41,531 bases of DNA from a virus (UHGV-0397187), one strand, 5' to 3'. Shown: positions 1 to 17,372, counted from the first letter of the stretch. Notes: generated by a model not told the origin, from the sequence alone. Numbers and translations are program-made.

Positions 1-55
1 GGTATCTGATTATCTCCTGTGCCCACATCCCTTTTCGCCGCTTCTCCCAAACCAA
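1..55 (-). CDS. tail-fibre variable C-terminal segment, 5' fragment (no own start codon; continues left of the window)
   Basis: Minus-strand translation of 1-55 reads [20 protein letters not shown], identical to the residues that follow the crossover site in the tail fibre at 39614-40309; DNA is the reverse complement of about 39951-40005. Confidence 0.5.
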   Translation of the reverse strand, partial: MVWEKRRKGMWAQEIIRY

Positions 56-67
56 CGTTTATGAAAA
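42..67. other. hix/gix-like 26-bp invertase crossover site (copy at window start)
   Basis: ttctcccaaacc-aa-cgtttatgaaaa: left half-site identical to the sites at 39939-39964 and 41482-41507; matches the recalled Hin hixL pattern TTCTTGAAAACCAAGGTTTTTGATAA in the conserved half. Confidence 0.6.
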
Positions 68-121
68 TGCAGAAATAACGAGCAAATGGCGTCATTCCTG
101 CTTTTGTCAGGGTGATCTACC

Positions 122-414
122 ATGTTTATAGGCTATGTACGCGCATCAACAAATGACCAGGACACCGATTTACAACGCAATGCGTTGATCTGTGCAGGAT
201 ATGAGCTGATTTTTTGAGGGTAAATCATCAGCATGAGACTAATAATTTAGCGTCCAATTCTGGGCTTTTTGGTTGCACCCTCTCCGCCCAGAATTGCGCG
301 CCAATTGGCCCAGAAAAAAACGCGAAGTTACAAGTTCCTCGCCAGAAGGTGGCGATCATCTATGATGTTGGCATATCGACTTTGTATAAGAAGTTTCCGG
401 TCGGAGATAAATGA
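122..414 (+). pseudogene. pin: serine DNA invertase (Pin/Hin/Gin family) remnant with internal deletion
   Basis: 122-217 encodes MFIGYVRASTNDQDTDLQRNALICAGYELIF then a stop (invertase N-terminus with the catalytic-Ser motif); the 214-414 frame ends ...RQKVAIIYDVGISTLYKKFPV, resembling the invertase C-terminal HTH; the central catalytic domain is missing. Confidence 0.7.
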
Positions 415-574
415 AACCGTAGCACGTCGTATGCAAGAACGTGCCACGGCTGGCTGATGGACGTTCGATAGCGCGAGTTTGAATGAAAATCAGCCGGAGG
501 TGATTTTACATAATTGTTGCGGAATCATTCAATATAGGGATTGCTTATTTCTGCCTGGATTGGTCTGAAATAGT

Positions 575-829
575 CCCGAAATTTTCTCTAAAAAACTCGA
601 AAAAAATGGTAACTAATTGAATGCATTAATATGCAATGGTACGTGTTTGGGATTAAAAGATGAGCGTAATTTTGCTTAACAAATTAATTTAAAAAGGGTT
701 TCTTGTTTGTTGACGAAAACAGGAATCGTATTCGGTCTTTTTTTAATTGTATTTAAAATCAATCAGTTGTAAACGTCTCCCCGAAATTCCCCGAAATTTA
801 CTCGAATTTCTGTATTCCGGTCTTTTTTG
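575..829. promoter_or_regulatory. AT-rich repeat-rich region downstream of int 3' end; candidate attL with integrase arm-type sites
   Basis: Tandem ccccgaaatt x2 at 779-798, cccgaaatt at 575-583, tattcggtcttttttt at 729-745 repeated as tattccggtctttttt at 813-829; sits where lambda-type prophages carry attL. Confidence 0.3.
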
Positions 830-875: not shown

Positions 876-1952
876 TCAGAGCAGTAAGTACGTTTTTTCT
901 CTCTCATCAAGGTACATTTTTGTTGTCTTCTCCGATGTGTGGCCAAGTAGACGCTGAGCAAATTCTTCTCCACATGTTTCTTTGTACAATCGTCCAGCCA
1001 GACTTCTGATCTCGTGAAAAGTTGGTGGGTTTTCACTGAACTGGATACCTGTTAATTTTCTGGCTGCGACAAATTTTTTTGTCAGGCCATCCGGGTGAAT
1101 GCTGCCGTCAGGGCTGTTTTTTCTAATCCCGGCACTGATTAGATAATCTCCCCGGCTTACCAGGCGGCATCGTTCAACTACTGTACCAAGTCGTAAACCA
1201 GCGACAGGAAGGCTGAGTGACAGGGGGATAGCAATCATCATTCCTGTCTTAATTTGCCTGATGTGGAGACGATCATCATAAATCTCACTGAACCGCATAT
1301 TTGTTATGTCTTCGCGACGTTGTCCTGTTACAAGGGCTAAGTCCATAGCTAATGGGAACCATGTCGGAAGTTGATCTGCTGCCTCCCTGATGCAGTTGTA
1401 TGTCTTTAGTTTCAGCCGTTCTCTTGTAACTACTATTTTCGGTGCTCTTGTTGGCGTTACTGGATTTTGAGATATACGTCCTTCAACAATGGCCTCGCGG
1501 AACATATCAGATAACACAGAACGCATTGATCCTGCCATCGTGTTTTTCCCTCCTTCAATCCACAAATCAAGAAACTCGGCAATATGGCGAGTGGTTATTT
1601 CTGTCAGTAAAACTCCTCCTAATTTTTCTTTTATTGTCTCCAGTTGATTTACCCGAATTTTATAAGTATTTCTGGACACTTTTCTCCTTATAAGAATCGT
1701 TTTGTAACGTTCAATCCAGTCTGCCATAGTAAATGAGTCGAACCCTTTTAGTTTTTCAATTAAGGTAGCAGGAGAGTAGTTTTTGTATATATAATGATTT
1801 GCTTCAATTGCCTGCGCTACTGCATCTCTTCTTGAAATTTTACCTAGTGTAAATTCTTCTTTCGTCAGAGGGTTGCGCCAGTAATATGCTTTGTCCCTCC
1901 TTCGATATGTTAAGTTTTTAGGCAAATTGGGATCGTATTTTTTCCGCTGCAT
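876..1952 (-). CDS. int: lambda-family tyrosine integrase
   Basis: 358-aa ORF; N-terminus [28 protein letters not shown]...EFTLGK parallels lambda Int MGRRRSHERRDLPPNLYIRNNGYYCYRDPRTGKEFGLG; C-terminal [15 protein letters not shown]...LLGH motif also conserved. Confidence 0.9.
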
Positions 1953-2205
1953 GTTTTAACTTCTCCAGTAACGGACTGTCTCTCCCTTGTCGCCCATTAG
2001 GCTGATGGTGTGTTATATCGGTATCAACCTTATTTGGGTTGATATAGAAAGCTTCCGGAACCACCCTGTAACTCCTCCCGTGTAGTTCAGGTGCAGGATA
2101 AATGTTTCCATTCCTTGCCCATCGTCTCAGCGTTGATATTGATGGTGGGTTATCCGGATATCTGAGTTTTCCCCACGTTTTGAGTGTCACAAGATTCATT
2201 GCCAT
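1918..2205 (-). CDS. xis: excisionase (Xis-like), overlapping int start
   Basis: 95-aa ORF immediately upstream of and overlapping int, as in lambda xis-int; small basic protein; position-based call. Confidence 0.5.
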   Translation of the reverse strand: MAMNLVTLKTWGKLRYPDNPPSISTLRRWARNGNIYPAPELHGRSYRVVPEAFYINPNKVDTDITHHQPNGRQGRDSPLLEKLKHAAEKIRSQFA

Positions 2206-2305
2206 ACCTCTTACGATATGACCGCCAGTAAATATACAGAATACTGGCGGGTGTGGTTGATTTTTAATAATCAGCTATGAAGTTCTAATTTGTATATAAT
2301 GCAAC

Positions 2306-2494
2306 TCACGAGGACAGAAGTTTCTCGCAATTAAAATTTATCAGCTTTACTTTCTGCTCTCTGGACACGCCTGCTTCTTTTTTCCCTGAGAGCATTTTTT
2401 CGCATTCTGATTTCGTTAATTTAGATTTTGAATATCTTGTCCAGTTAGTAGGAGTGCCACCTTCTTTTTCAATAGTGGCAGTTATTTTATACAT
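2306..2494 (-). CDS. hypothetical small protein (position of Rac ydaC); start uncertain
   Basis: ORF 2306-2566 on minus strand; a later Met is chosen to limit overlap with the downstream lar-like gene. Confidence 0.35.
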   Translation of the reverse strand: MYKITATIEKEGGTPTNWTRYSKSKLTKSECEKMLSGKKEAGVSREQKVKLINFNCEKLLSS

Positions 2495-2693
2495 GAACAC
2501 CTCCATTATTATTTCCAGTAGTTCGTTTATTCCATCTTTCGAGTGCTTCTTTTTCACTTCCACCATAGCCAGTTCGGGATTCGCATCCGTTGCATTTTGC
2601 CCGGTAATATCCTGAAATTGCTTTCACCGTAACAGATGGACAACCACAAAACGGACATGGTTTAACATCGTCATATCTCATAATTTTTGTCAT
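2487..2693 (-). CDS. lar: Lar/RalR-family restriction-alleviation protein
   Basis: MTKIMRYDDVKPCPFCGCPSVTVKA...KCNGCESRTGY: small protein with paired Cys motifs typical of the Lar family; sits directly upstream of recT as in Rac. Confidence 0.7.
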   Translation of the reverse strand: MTKIMRYDDVKPCPFCGCPSVTVKAISGYYRAKCNGCESRTGYGGSEKEALERWNKRTTGNNNGGVHV

Positions 2694-2737
2694 AAAAACT
2701 GTCTCACGTTGGCGGTGCATTACACCGCCAGGCTGAA

Positions 2738-3547
2738 TTATTCTTCTGAATTATCGATTACACTGTATTCCCCGGTTAATACAGAGGAGTCTGCCGGATC
2801 GATTGTCAGTGGTTCCTTTTCATCCATTGATACTGCACGCTGGATTTCAATTGAGACAGGCAGGTATTTAAACAGGCGACGAATAGCCGTTTTTTTTGCC
2901 ATTTCTTCCCAGTGAGTTACCCATGGCCCGTTATTACCAGCCTTACTCTGGCTGCGCACCAGTTCAATCTGTTTGCGCGTCATAACTTCAAACTGAGTCC
3001 CTCCGTCTTTCAGTCTTGCGACAGCATAGACGTGGGTCACTGGTGCATCTTCGTTTTCTCCCGGGCGGTGTATTAACTTTTCATCAAGGCCAAATTCAAA
3101 ACTAAACTCGTCACCTTCACGGACAACACGGGCTGACAGGCTGGCGATTTGACCAGAACGGCGAGCCAGATCAATCATGCCGCGATAACCAATGATTAGC
3201 TGAACGTTCTTTTTACCGCTCTTTTCGTTTTTATTACCAAAAGGCAGTAAATATGCGTGGCCGAGGGCGCTACCTGGCTCAAGGCCGAGCTGTGAACACT
3301 GAACGATCGCACTGACAAAACTCATGGTGTCACAGTTTCCTAGCGCCGGAACCTTACGAATTTCTGTGGTGGCGATACGTATCATTCGTTCAGCCGTCAT
3401 ATGGCGTGGGAGAGCTGCTGCCAGTTGCTCTTTCATTGATGGCTGATTAATAAAGCTGATCACGTCGTTATTTTTTACTGCTGCTGGTGCACGGTTTCCC
3501 TGGGTTTTTTGCAGATCGGCTTTTGCGATAGGTGGTTGCTTAGTCAT
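2738..3547 (-). CDS. recT: RecT single-strand annealing recombinase
   Basis: From [32 protein letters not shown]... the translation matches my recollection of E. coli Rac RecT essentially throughout. Confidence 0.95.
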
Positions 3548-7012: not shown

Positions 7013-7407
7013 AATTATCTCCATTTTTACAAATGAACTTTGTTGATGCGGTGCCTGGTGCCTCCAGGTGACGTTAACCAGTTAACAATTAACGCCGGAT
7101 AATCCACCCATAACACTGATGCTTTTAACTGTGCCGCGTGCGCTTAGCCGCATTCACCGCATCACAAAATTCACTTTAAAAAGGGGCAGCAGGGCAGCCA
7201 CGGAGTAGAACTGATGCCGCCAAAGACTACACATAGCAATGTCGTTATTTACAACCGGAGGCGCACTCCCACCATTTAAATTTAACAGACAAGACCGACT
7301 CTTTATGAATACCGGAAATGCGCCTTCGTGTTGTGCGCCTGTCTTTTTACCACTTCAGGCTCGGTGGTATACTGGAGTTCTCACACAACCAGTAATAAGG
7401 TATTCCG

Positions 7408-14608: not shown

Positions 14609-14946
14609 ATTACCGAGTAAGGCGATGGACTACCTGAAGCGAAACGGGCTGACAAGCGTGGAGGATATTTTACGATGACCTGGCCTGAGGCATTCACCAC
14701 GGTAGGAATTGCAATGGCGGTGGCGCTGGTGGTGTATTCGATTTGCCGCTGGGGATAAAAACGGTTTGCGGGAAAAGGAGAGTTAAGTAGAATTGCAGCG
14801 GGTGCTTGAGGCTATCTGCCTCGGGCATGAACACCAACGGCAGATAGATAAAAGCCCCACCCGACTATAAATCGAAGTGAGGCCCCTATATGCTCGTCAC
14901 ATATAGATTGCCTCTTACGGACCGAAAGGTCAAGGAGAAGCAGGCT

Positions 14947-15102
14947 ATGAAGCAGCAAAAGGCGATGTTAGTCGCCCTGATCGTCATCTGTTTAACCGTC
15001 ATAGTGACGGCACTGGTAACGAGGAAAGACCTCTGCGAGGTACGAATCCGAACCGGCCAGACGGAGGTCGCTGTCTTCACAGCTTACGAACCTGAGGAGT
15101 AA
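14947..15102 (+). CDS. hok: Hok/Gef-family type I toxin
   Basis: MKQQKAMLVALIVICLTVIVTALVTRKDLCEVRIRTGQTEVAVFTAYEPEE: hallmark Hok sequence; aaggag RBS; in-frame upstream extension from 14890. Confidence 0.9.
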   Translation: MKQQKAMLVALIVICLTVIVTALVTRKDLCEVRIRTGQTEVAVFTAYEPEE

Positions 15103-17102: not shown

Positions 17103-17128
17103 CTCAATCTGTTATCCGGGGCTATATT
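17099..17128 (+). promoter_or_regulatory. late promoter PR'-like (sigma70)
   Basis: -35 ttgact (17099-17104), 18-bp spacer, -10 tatatt (17123-17128). Confidence 0.6.
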
Positions 17129-17189
17129 CCTCACGCGCCAGCAAAATCTGGCGTCGGGATTGGCGTCCCGGATAGAGACCGCGACAGAT

Positions 17190-17213
17190 ACACGCCGCGA
17201 GCGTGTTTTTTAT
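17190..17213 (+). terminator. tR'-like intrinsic terminator about 65 nt downstream of PR'
   Basis: acacgc-cgcga-gcgtgt followed by tttttatt. Confidence 0.6.
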
Positions 17214-17372
17214 TGTCGTATGCACGCGCACATCTGAATTATGGTGGGCTGTGTGGGGGCGGAGAGATCCGCGCCGGTCGGTTTCCCGGTTACGCCAACC
17301 CTGCACAGTTCACCACCAGATGATTGGCGTCGTCGGTGGTGAGTTATTAAGAAACCACCAGAGGGCGTCATT

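What the first reader, a model, noticed from the sequence alone, without database searches (positions are those of the whole stretch)
2487..2740. Lar/RalR homologue: possible type I toxin-antitoxin with an unannotated antisense RNA
In Rac, RalR is reported to be a toxin paired with a small RNA antitoxin encoded nearby. The homologue here sits in the same context between the ydaC position and recT, so a similar sRNA may exist.
Basis: established knowledge. Interest (0 to 1): 0.35.

Follow-up and report, generated by a model that had tools for sequence, protein, structure and literature searches.

The report
Known RalR toxin with RalA sRNA
This is the already-described ralR/ralA module of Rac-like E. 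coli prophages: a small zinc-ribbon "Lar/RalR" protein gene with the known RalA small RNA gene next to it, so the finding is correct but ordinary.

Summary
Window 2487..2681 (-) encodes a 64-aa protein that differs from E. coli K-12 RalR/Lar by one residue (N5D) and passes the NCBIfam RalR equivalog and Pfam Lar models. It lies just outside the given coordinates, at 2310..2488 (+): a full-length Rfam RF02694 (RalA) match of 219 bits against a gathering score of 170. The layout is the same as in K-12: ralA converges on ralR, overlaps its stop codon by 2 nt, and is antisense to ydaC/rcbA (2306..2494, -). RalA is therefore not a cis-antisense RNA of ralR. Published work has it act in trans through a 16-nt box. 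Here the 11-nt perfect core of that box is intact (RalA 2372..2387 against ralR 2544..2559), with one A-U pair fewer than in K-12. The system is already known (Guo et al. 2014; gene b4714).

Three side results qualify the published model:
- ydaC evolves as a protein-coding gene under purifying selection.
- The RalA secondary structure shows almost no covariation.
- The complementarity box is absent from the Salmonella and Citrobacter ralR-ydaC homologues.

Interest is low.

The parts
2487..2681 (-). ralR (lar) coding sequence, 64 aa. Zinc-ribbon protein with C9, C12, C30 and C33. Reported DNase toxin and restriction-alleviation protein.
   Evidence: The NCBI pipeline (PGAP) annotates these coordinates in identical strain M19. 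NCBIfam NF007260 165.9 bits; Pfam PF14354. One residue differs from K-12. AlphaFold model: three strands plus a C-terminal helix, pLDDT 71.
2544..2559 (-). Target box in ralR mRNA (ORF nt 123-138, AAGUGAAAAAGAAGCA, codons for S-E-K-E-A).
   Evidence: Identical to the K-12 box defined by mutagenesis in PMC4041452. Coordinates.
2682..2737 (-). ralR leader between the recT stop and the ralR start. Contains the hairpin GGCGGUG-loop-CACCGCC (2711..2729). No good Shine-Dalgarno sequence precedes the ralR ATG.
   Evidence: Fold -18 to -20 kcal/mol, z -3.9 and -4.5. The stem is invariant and the loop varies in K-12, Salmonella and the Citrobacter-type locus L096. The absence of a Shine-Dalgarno sequence was read from the sequence.
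2750..2779 (-). Promoter-like site upstream of ralR, inside the 3' end of recT (TTAACC, 18-nt spacer, GATAAT).
   Evidence: It was the only promoter-like match in 2100..2900, fewer than the 2.2 expected from shuffles. This is a consensus match only and its function was not tested.
2310..2488 (+). ralA, the 179-nt RalA sRNA gene (reported antitoxin of RalR). It is antisense to ydaC and overlaps the ralR stop codon by 2 nt.
   Evidence: Rfam RF02694, 219.2 bits, model positions 1-179 of 179, E 2.4e-52. 171 of 179 nt are identical to K-12 ralA b4714.
2295..2300 (+). Candidate -10 hexamer TATAAT for RalA (TACAAT in K-12 and Salmonella). No recognisable -35.
   Evidence: Read from the sequence. The transcription start was mapped in K-12 only, 62 nt upstream of the box, which corresponds to window 2310 (PMC4041452). 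The simple promoter scan did not report it because of the poor -35.
2372..2387 (+). RalA pairing box (RalA nt 63-78, UGCUUCUUUUUUCCCU). It has 11 contiguous Watson-Crick pairs plus one G-U with the ralR box. Position 75 is C here and A in K-12, so one A-U pair is lost.
   Evidence: Local duplex -17.8 kcal/mol against -19.8 in K-12.
2461..2471 (+). Second 11-nt exact complement to ralR mRNA (ORF nt 126-136), in the 14-nt loop of the RalA terminator hairpin (RalA nt 152-162, CUUCUUUUUCA). It is present in this allele and absent from K-12, because RalA position 156 is U here and C in K-12.
   Evidence: Duplex -16.3 kcal/mol against -10.8 in K-12. Function untested.
2455..2488 (+). RalA terminator: 6-bp stem UGCCAC/GUGGCA, 14-nt loop, tail UUAUUUU.
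   Evidence: Rfam consensus structure; folds (-9.9 kcal/mol, z -1.4, a weak hairpin). It is outside the loop-size limits of the terminator scan, which found nothing.
2306..2494 (-). ydaC/rcbA (DUF1187), 62 aa. Its start overlaps the ralR stop by 8 nt (ATGTATAA), and a GGAGG Shine-Dalgarno sequence lies inside ralR (plus-strand CCTCC at 2500..2504).
   Evidence: Pfam PF06688 E 5.8e-38; NCBIfam NF007283; PHROG 5753. Purifying selection: 20 of 30 variable sites are at codon position 3 (P=1.9e-4); 7 synonymous and 0 non-synonymous differences from K-12; dN/dS 0.037 between L009 and L010.

Best explanation
The interval is the ralR gene of a Rac-like lambdoid prophage or phage, and its known partner gene ralA lies immediately downstream on the opposite strand (2310..2488). 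Together they are an allele of the published RalR/RalA type I toxin-antitoxin locus.

Shown here by homology and sequence:
- ralR encodes a 64-aa four-cysteine zinc-ribbon protein one residue different from K-12 RalR.
- ralA is a full-length, above-threshold Rfam RalA match with a perfect -10 hexamer and a hairpin plus U-tail at its 3' end.
- The 11-nt perfect core of the RalA/ralR-mRNA complementarity is intact.

Taken from the one experimental paper on the K-12 allele, not testable here:
- Overproduced RalR is toxic and cleaves DNA non-specifically with Mg2+ or Ca2+.
- RalA, with Hfq, pairs with nt 123-138 of the ralR ORF and lowers RalR protein without lowering ralR mRNA.

Inferred:
- ydaC is translationally coupled to ralR: their ORFs overlap by 8 nt, a GGAGG lies inside ralR, and no terminator-like site was found in 2100..2900. 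The native ralR mRNA therefore most likely continues through ydaC.
- On that bicistronic mRNA, RalA would also be a perfect 179-nt cis-antisense RNA.
- In this allele the trans box is one pair weaker than in K-12, but a second 11-nt complement sits in the terminator loop.
For: ralR identity. RalA match: 219.2 bits against a gathering score of 170; alignment over model positions 1-179. Same layout as the annotated K-12 genes ralA b4714, ralR b1348 and rcbA b1347. Box sequences and core complementarity. An exact complement of 11 nt or more occurs in only 1.5-2.5% of dinucleotide shuffles. The toxicity-relevant residues 14, 37, 39, 49, 51 and 52 (PMC4041452) are unchanged, since only residue 5 differs. 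Experimental basis of the mechanism: PMC4041452. The allele is common: 186 complete E. coli genomes are at least 99% identical over 2200-2800, and 1922 of 5426 carry the locus.
Against: - All functional claims rest on one overexpression study of the K-12 allele. A contemporary review notes that pairing inside the coding region and Hfq dependence are atypical, and that RNA ends were not mapped (PMC4147584).
- There is no comparative support for the RalA structure. No pair is compensatory across 27 distinct E. coli alleles. Only one is compensatory when Salmonella is added, while 10-13 pairs are simply broken.
- In this allele the 5' stem-loop said to stabilise RalA has two mismatches (A5-C36, A7-A34) and does not form in the minimum-free-energy fold.
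- The whole-RNA fold is not unusually stable (z -1.3).
- The complementarity box is not conserved where the ralR-ydaC pair is. The longest shared repeat is 7 nt in Salmonella and 8 nt in Citrobacter-type loci.
- The predicted RalR fold resembles zinc ribbons and no known nuclease, with no significant PDB match.
Confidence: 0.85

Rival explanations
1. RalR is primarily Lar, an early phage anti-restriction protein expressed from the left operon on infection or induction to protect unmodified DNA from type I restriction enzymes. On this view the toxin-antitoxin behaviour is an overexpression effect, and the RalA transcript mainly regulates or interferes with ydaC, to which it is fully antisense.
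For: The protein passes the Lar family models TIGR03655 and PF14354, and PHROG 599 'Lar-like restriction alleviation protein'. The gene sits in the recE-recT-ralR-ydaC-xis-int early-left operon context. The 16-nt trans complementarity is missing in Salmonella and Citrobacter homologues although the gene pair is kept. The predicted structure shows no nuclease-like fold. RalA is complementary to ydaC over its whole length.
Against: Guo et al. report that RalR did not alleviate restriction in their hands. They also report that purified RalR, but not the K52Q mutant, degraded DNA, and that compensatory mutations in the two boxes restored antitoxin activity (PMC4041452). The two functions are not mutually exclusive.
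Confidence: 0.3
2. The conserved functional unit is the translationally coupled protein pair RalR-YdaC. YdaC (RcbA, the 'double-strand break reduction protein') would be the real, conserved partner or neutraliser of RalR. The RalA trans pairing would be a recent add-on specific to the E. coli lineage, or a by-product of two ORFs sharing K/E-K-E-A codons.
For: ydaC is under strong purifying selection: 20 of 30 variable sites at codon position 3 (P=1.9e-4); 7 synonymous and 0 non-synonymous differences from K-12; dN/dS 0.037. It has a strong GGAGG Shine-Dalgarno sequence and overlaps ralR by 8 nt. It belongs to Pfam DUF1187 and always follows ralR in the E. coli, Salmonella and Citrobacter-type loci examined. 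The 'boxes' are direct repeats of codons for EKEA and KKEA in the two ORFs.
Against: In PMC4041452 a start-codon mutation and an early stop codon in ydaC did not abolish antitoxin activity, RalA expressed alone from pBAD neutralised RalR, and no tagged YdaC protein was detected. There is no direct evidence that YdaC binds or inhibits RalR.
Confidence: 0.2
3. The RalA gene is present but ineffective in this allele. The A75C change in the box and the two mismatches in the 5' stem-loop would weaken pairing and stability so that ralR is effectively unregulated by RNA.
For: One A-U pair is lost in the box (-17.8 against -19.8 kcal/mol). The 5' hairpin is not formed. In K-12, single-nucleotide changes inside the box (T63C, G64C) reduced antitoxin function.
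Against: The mutated positions that mattered in K-12 (63 and 64) and the whole 11-nt core are unchanged. C75 is the commoner state, found in 26 of 49 distinct alleles. This allele has a consensus -10 (TATAAT), a slightly better terminator (a U-A closing pair and an extra U in the tail) and a second 11-nt complement in the terminator loop. The allele occurs in at least 186 complete genomes, which argues against a lethal imbalance.
Confidence: 0.1

Closest known systems
RalR/RalA type I toxin-antitoxin system of E. coli K-12 cryptic prophage Rac (ralR b1348, ralA b4714; Rfam RF02694; Guo et al. 2014, PMC4041452)
   Same: Orthologous locus. RalR is 63 of 64 residues identical and RalA 171 of 179 nt identical. 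The convergent layout, 2-nt overlap, position antisense to ydaC, ralR target box and 11-nt core pairing are all the same, as is the recE-recT-ralR-ydaC-xis-int context.
   Different: There are eight substitutions in RalA. Seven are synonymous in ydaC and the eighth, at RalA position 7, changes YdaC Q60L. Their effects: one pair fewer in the box (A75C); two mismatches in the 5' stem-loop; a consensus -10; a second 11-nt complement in the terminator loop. YdaC is 62 aa rather than 69. The integrase and attachment site differ (358-aa integrase, next to yebY in strain M19, against IntR at ttcA in K-12).
Lar family restriction-alleviation proteins (Pfam PF14354, TIGR03655, PHROG 599)
   Same: The protein passes all three family models. 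It is a small four-cysteine zinc-ribbon protein encoded in the early region of a lambdoid phage.
   Different: The family name implies anti-restriction, whereas the K-12 orthologue was reported to be a DNase toxin with no anti-restriction effect (PMC4041452). Neither activity can be tested here.
Trans-encoded or divergent type I systems with short complementarity (TisB/IstR-1, ShoB/OhsC, ZorO/OrzO)
   Same: The antitoxin RNA is encoded next to the toxin gene, not opposite its coding sequence, and has only a short region of complementarity (16 nt here, 18-21 nt there; PMC4041452).
   Different: Those toxins are small hydrophobic membrane peptides and pairing is in the 5' UTR. RalR is a soluble zinc-ribbon protein, pairing is at codons 41-46, and Hfq is required (PMC4147584).
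hok/sok-type cis-antisense type I systems (one is present elsewhere in this window, about 14800..15102)
   Same: A small RNA represses synthesis of a toxic protein encoded by a prophage.
   Different: Sok overlaps the hok/mok leader in cis and the toxin is a membrane peptide. RalA does not overlap the ralR coding sequence beyond 2 nt.

Membership tests
RalR/RalA type I TA (K-12 Rac) | Toxin protein is an equivalog of RalR | tested here: met
   NCBIfam NF007260 165.9 bits (cut-off 113), residues 1-64 of 64. 63 of 64 residues identical to K-12.
RalR/RalA type I TA (K-12 Rac) | RalA sRNA gene present, full length, above the Rfam gathering score | tested here: met
   RF02694 219.2 bits against 170, model positions 1-179 of 179, window 2310..2488 (+).
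RalR/RalA type I TA (K-12 Rac) | ralA convergent with ralR, immediately downstream, on the strand opposite ydaC | tested here: met
   Coordinates compared with K-12 ralA, ralR and rcbA.
RalR/RalA type I TA (K-12 Rac) | 16-nt complementarity between RalA nt 63-78 and ralR ORF nt 123-138, with an 11-nt perfect core | tested here: met
   The 11-nt core plus one G-U is intact and the target is identical to K-12. The A-U pair at RalA position 75 is lost (13 of 16 positions paired, against 14 of 16 in K-12).
RalR/RalA type I TA (K-12 Rac) | RalR residues whose mutation reduced toxicity (14, 37, 39, 49, 51, 52) are conserved | tested here: met
   The only difference from K-12 is N5D. Residue list from PMC4041452.
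RalR/RalA type I TA (K-12 Rac) | RalA secondary structure (5' stem-loop, central domain, terminator) maintained | tested here: inconclusive
   46 of 48 consensus pairs form in this allele. The 5' stem-loop has two mismatches and is absent from the minimum-free-energy fold. There is no covariation across alleles.
RalR/RalA type I TA (K-12 Rac) | RalA is transcribed. RalR is toxic and has DNase activity. RalA neutralises it in an Hfq-dependent way. | not testable with these tools
   Known only from experiments on the K-12 allele (PMC4041452). Here there is only a TATAAT -10 at 2295..2300.
Lar family (PF14354 / TIGR03655) | Match to the family HMMs above their cut-offs | tested here: met
   PF14354 53.8 bits (cut-off 28.6); TIGR03655 55.3 bits (cut-off 39.6).
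Lar family (PF14354 / TIGR03655) | Alleviates type I (EcoKI) restriction | not testable with these tools
   Needs a phage plating assay on hosts with and without the restriction system.
Classical cis-antisense type I TA (hok/sok-like) | Small hydrophobic membrane toxin, with the antisense RNA overlapping the toxin mRNA leader or coding sequence | tested here: not met
   RalR is hydrophilic, with four cysteines forming a zinc ribbon and no transmembrane segment in the sequence or model. RalA overlaps the ralR coding sequence by only 2 nt.
DUF1187 / YdaC (RcbA) | Match to PF06688, and evolution as a protein-coding gene | tested here: met
   PF06688 129.5 bits. Excess of codon-position-3 variation and dN/dS well below 1.

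The most novel reading that the evidence does not exclude
The unit conserved across E. coli, Salmonella and Citrobacter prophages is the translationally coupled protein pair RalR-YdaC, not RalR-RalA. YdaC is a real, selected protein and could be the ancestral partner of RalR, for example a protein inhibitor or a factor limiting DNA breaks. On this reading RalA is chiefly a cis-antisense RNA of the ralR-ydaC mRNA. Its short trans pairing with ralR arose only in E. coli-type alleles from repeated K/E-K-E-A codons. This allele would then carry two alternative 11-nt pairing sites.
Probability: 0.2. Interest if true: 0.45.

Novelty: already known. Interest (0 to 1): 0.1.

Why it matters
As it stands this only confirms that a published prophage toxin/sRNA module is present in this element and that automatic annotation of this allele omits the sRNA gene. 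The side results have modest value. They show that the DNA under RalA is constrained as the ydaC protein gene. They also show that the RNA-RNA complementarity central to the type I model is confined to E. coli-type alleles. A specialist re-examining whether RalR/RalA is a genuine type I system, or how RalR relates to Lar anti-restriction and to RcbA/YdaC, could use both points.

Tried and rejected
- The simple promoter and terminator scan of 2100..2900 found no plus-strand promoter and no terminator.
- RNAduplex on the full-length RNAs gave a meaningless long interrupted duplex. I replaced it with local duplexes.
- One script timed out and three failed on coding errors (the fix is).
- A sequence search of the PDB with RalR gave only a spurious weak hit to chitin-binding protein CbpD.
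- A Foldseek search of the PDB with the model gave nothing at E <= 0.001, only generic zinc ribbons. It neither supports nor refutes a nuclease.
- A literature search for RalA together with RIL-seq and Hfq found no paper. A search for rcbA/ydaC found nothing beyond Guo et al. bearing on whether YdaC is made.
- The genome-contig scan with RalR returned only 9 loci. The word-indexed protein search returned only close relatives, so the wider Lar family was not explored.
- I considered the 77-aa extended ORF (start at 2720) and rejected it. The extension differs from K-12 mostly by non-synonymous changes (alignment; translations read), and the NCBI pipeline (PGAP) and K-12 annotations use the 64-aa start.
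- I considered the 53-aa plus-strand ORF at 2454..2615. I dismissed it as a chance antisense ORF, since it has no family match and overlaps two conserved genes.

Full report
**What is at the coordinates**

The minus strand of 2487..2740 carries an ORF of 77 aa (2487..2720). Its last 64 codons (2487..2681) are the gene that NCBI's annotation pipeline (PGAP) annotates as ralR in E. coli strain M19, whose sequence is 100% identical over window 2200-2800.

- The 64-aa product scores 165.9 bits on the NCBIfam equivalog NF007260 (RalR; cut-off 113).
- It also passes the Lar family models TIGR03655 and PF14354, and PHROG 599.
- It differs from K-12 RalR only at residue 5 (N to D).
- The 13-codon N-terminal extension is open in K-12 too, but it differs mostly by non-synonymous changes, so I use the 64-aa start.
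- The rest of the interval (2682..2740) is the ralR leader and the recT stop codon.

The neighbourhood is the early-left operon of a Rac-like lambdoid element: recE, recT, ralR, ydaC (DUF1187), xis, int. The locus occurs in 1922 of 5426 complete E. coli genomes. The exact allele class of this window (at least 99% identity) is in 186 of them, and the K-12-like class (90-95% identity) in 1686.

**The predicted small RNA exists and is the known one**

An Rfam scan of the whole window gives a full-length RalA (RF02694) match at 2310..2488 on the plus strand: 219.2 bits against a gathering score of 170, E 2.4e-52. In K-12 MG1655 ralA (b4714) is annotated in exactly the same relation to its neighbours. 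It converges on ralR, overlaps its stop codon by 2 nt, and lies wholly inside and antisense to rcbA/ydaC. The PGAP record of the identical strain lists no RNA gene here, so in that sense it is unannotated.

Upstream of the RNA start there is a perfect TATAAT at 2295..2300 (TACAAT in K-12 and Salmonella) but no recognisable -35. At the 3' end there is the 6-bp stem, 14-nt loop and U-rich tail of the published terminator.

**How it is reported to work, and the state of each element here**

Guo et al. 2014 (PMC4041452) report the following for the K-12 allele:
- Induced RalR is toxic.
- Purified RalR, but not the K52Q mutant, degrades DNA with Mg2+ or Ca2+.
- The antitoxin activity of the 'ydaC DNA' survives a ydaC start-codon mutation and an early stop codon.
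- A 179-nt RNA starts 62 nt upstream of a 16-nt box.
- Mutations in the box (T63C, G64C, and a four-base change) weaken or abolish protection, and matching changes in ralR restore it.
- RalR protein, but not ralR mRNA, falls when RalA is present.
- Hfq is needed.

In the window the ralR box (2544..2559; ORF nt 123-138) is identical to K-12. The RalA box (2372..2387) is UGCUUCUUUUUUCCCU against UGCUUCUUUUUUACCU in K-12. The 11 contiguous Watson-Crick pairs and the following G-U remain, but the A-U pair at RalA position 75 is lost. The local duplex energy is -17.8 kcal/mol against -19.8. C75 is in fact the commoner state, found in 26 of 49 distinct alleles. The residues reported as needed for toxicity are unchanged.

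RalA differs from K-12 at eight positions: 7, 36, 57, 75, 110, 156, 171 and 174.
- Positions 7 and 36 introduce two mismatches in the 5' stem-loop, which then no longer forms in the predicted fold.
- Positions 171 and 174 slightly improve the terminator.
- Position 156 creates a second exact 11-nt complement to ralR mRNA (ORF nt 126-136). It lies in the terminator loop at 2461..2471, with a duplex of -16.3 kcal/mol against -10.8 in K-12.

Whether that second site is used is unknown.

**How far the complementarity exceeds chance**

An exact complement of 11 nt or more between RalA and the ralR ORF appears in 1.5-2.5% of dinucleotide-preserving shuffles. This is unusual but not overwhelming. The boxes are A/G-rich codons for S-E-K-E-A in RalR, K-K-E-A in YdaC and, in this allele, E-K-E-G in YdaC.

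**Comparative evidence that qualifies the published model**

I collected 91 related loci from complete genomes, species-representative genomes and viral contigs. They gave 49 distinct alleles of the ralR-ydaC segment.

1. *ydaC behaves as a protein-coding gene under purifying selection.*
   - Of 30 variable sites in its frame, 20 are at codon position 3 (P=1.9e-4). The two other frames do not show this pattern.
   - Window against K-12 shows 7 synonymous and 0 non-synonymous differences in the shared 59 codons (P about 1.6e-5).
   - Two Citrobacter-type homologues give dN/dS 0.037.
   - ydaC also has a GGAGG Shine-Dalgarno sequence embedded in the end of ralR and overlaps ralR by 8 nt.
   - It matches Pfam DUF1187 at E 5.8e-38.
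[quoted passage not shown] It does not contradict the existence of RalA.
2. *The Rfam RalA structure has no covariation support.*
   - Across 27 distinct E. coli RalA alleles no pair changes on both sides, and 10 pairs are broken in some alleles.
   - Adding three Salmonella alleles (82% identity; Rfam 139-144 bits, below the gathering score) gives one compensatory pair and 13 broken ones.
   - The substitutions follow ydaC third-codon positions.
3. *The complementarity is not conserved.*
   - In Salmonella Rac-like prophages (RalR 80% identical, same recE-recT-ralR-ydaC-xis-int order) the longest repeat shared by ralR and the ydaC region is 7 nt.
   - In Citrobacter-type loci it is 8 nt, Rfam RalA scores only 29-35 bits, and no TATAAT-like -10 is visible at the equivalent upstream position in the one Citrobacter-type locus checked, L096.
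   - So the conserved unit is the two-protein cassette, and the trans box is specific to E. coli-type alleles.
4. *The boxes are direct repeats on the coding strand and recombine in nature.* Simulated deletions between the two 11-nt repeats of this very sequence (172 nt and 85 nt) reproduce exactly two database proteins, P0011 and P0014. These are RalR'-'YdaC fusions found in E. coli.

**The protein**

An AlphaFold model from a shallow alignment (pLDDT 71) shows a CxxC...CxxC zinc-ribbon sheet followed by a C-terminal helix. Foldseek against the PDB finds nothing significant; the best hits are generic zinc ribbons (eIF2-beta, TFIIB-like, ELOF1). This gives no independent support for a nuclease fold and no refutation either.

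**Mechanism I commit to**

The locus is the RalR/RalA module.
- ralR and ydaC are most likely made from one mRNA, from the early-left operon and possibly from a weak promoter-like site at 2750..2779.
- RalA is transcribed convergently from about 2310.
- In trans it can pair with codons 41-46 of ralR through the 11-12-nt core, and in this allele possibly through its terminator loop.
- On a bicistronic ralR-ydaC mRNA it would also form a perfect 179-bp duplex over ydaC.
- The outcome reported for K-12 is less RalR protein.

My confidence that this is the known locus with an intact ralA gene is about 0.85-0.9. My confidence that RNA-mediated repression of a DNase toxin is its main biological role is about 0.5-0.6. 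That role rests on one overexpression study, a review flagged it as atypical (PMC4147584), and the comparative data above do not support it.

**Verdict**

The system is already known. Interest is low.

Noticed in passing
window 2306..2494 (-): ydaC/rcbA (DUF1187), which RalA overlaps in antisense, evolves as a protein-coding gene under purifying selection. 20 of 30 variable sites are at codon position 3, dN/dS is 0.037 between distant homologues, and a strong GGAGG Shine-Dalgarno sequence lies inside ralR. This is contrary to the published statement that ydaC makes no protein.
   Followed up: yes
window 2461..2471 (+): This allele has a second exact 11-nt complement to ralR mRNA in the loop of the RalA terminator hairpin. 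It is created by a ydaC-synonymous change (C156U relative to K-12) and is absent from K-12.
   Followed up: partly
window 2372..2382, 2461..2471 and 2544..2556; proteins P0011 and P0014: The 'complementarity boxes' are direct repeats on the coding strand. Deleting the DNA between them in this sequence (172 nt or 85 nt) reproduces exactly two RalR'-'YdaC fusion proteins present in E. coli databases. The repeats therefore appear to be natural deletion hotspots, or the fusions are assembly artefacts.
   Followed up: yes
window 2711..2729 (both strands): A very stable hairpin GGCGGTG-5 nt-CACCGCC lies 9 nt after the recT stop, in the ralR leader (-18 to -20 kcal/mol, z about -4). The stem is invariant in E. 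coli, Salmonella and the Citrobacter-type locus L096, while the loop varies and is inverted in Salmonella. No U-tract is adjacent, so it is not a canonical terminator. Function unknown.
   Followed up: partly
loci L092-L096, L009, L010: Salmonella and Citrobacter-type prophages keep the ralR-ydaC gene pair but have no ralR/anti-ydaC complementarity longer than 7-8 nt. Salmonella keeps a RalA-like sequence (139-144 bits, below the Rfam threshold).
   Followed up: yes
window 14800..15102 (+): A hok/sok-type type I toxin-antitoxin locus. Rfam sok matches at 14800..14949 (103.9 bits). A Hok-like peptide (MKQQKAMLVALIVICLTVIVTALVTRKDLCEVRIRTGQTEVAVFTAYEPEE) lies inside the ORF at 14890..15102.
   Followed up: partly
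window 17122..17320 (+): There are Rfam matches to isrK (17135..17211), C4 antisense RNA (17237..17320) and its a1/b1 target (17122..17174). Together they form a P1/P7-type antisense immunity (anti-repressor control) module inside this lambdoid element.
   Followed up: no
window 7184..7235 (-): Rfam DicF sRNA match (55.3 bits), as in the dicB operon of prophage Qin. K-12 Rac is not known for it.
   Followed up: no
window 1..745 (+): Remnants of a pinE-type invertase gene (N- and C-terminal fragments, internal deletion of about 260 nt) lie directly next to the integrase gene. In complete genomes pinE lies about 40 kb away, at the other end of the prophage. The window therefore looks like a circularly joined or permuted phage genome spanning the attachment site.
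   Followed up: partly
window 876..2205 (-); locus L001: The integrase (358 aa) and excisionase differ from K-12 Rac IntR and XisR. In strain M19 the same element sits next to yobA-copD-yebY rather than ttcA, so this is a Rac-like phage with a different integration module.
   Followed up: partly
window 2222..2250: An inverted repeat CCGCCAGTA...TACTGGCGG lies between the xis start and the ydaC stop. It is not conserved in K-12. Function unknown.
   Followed up: no
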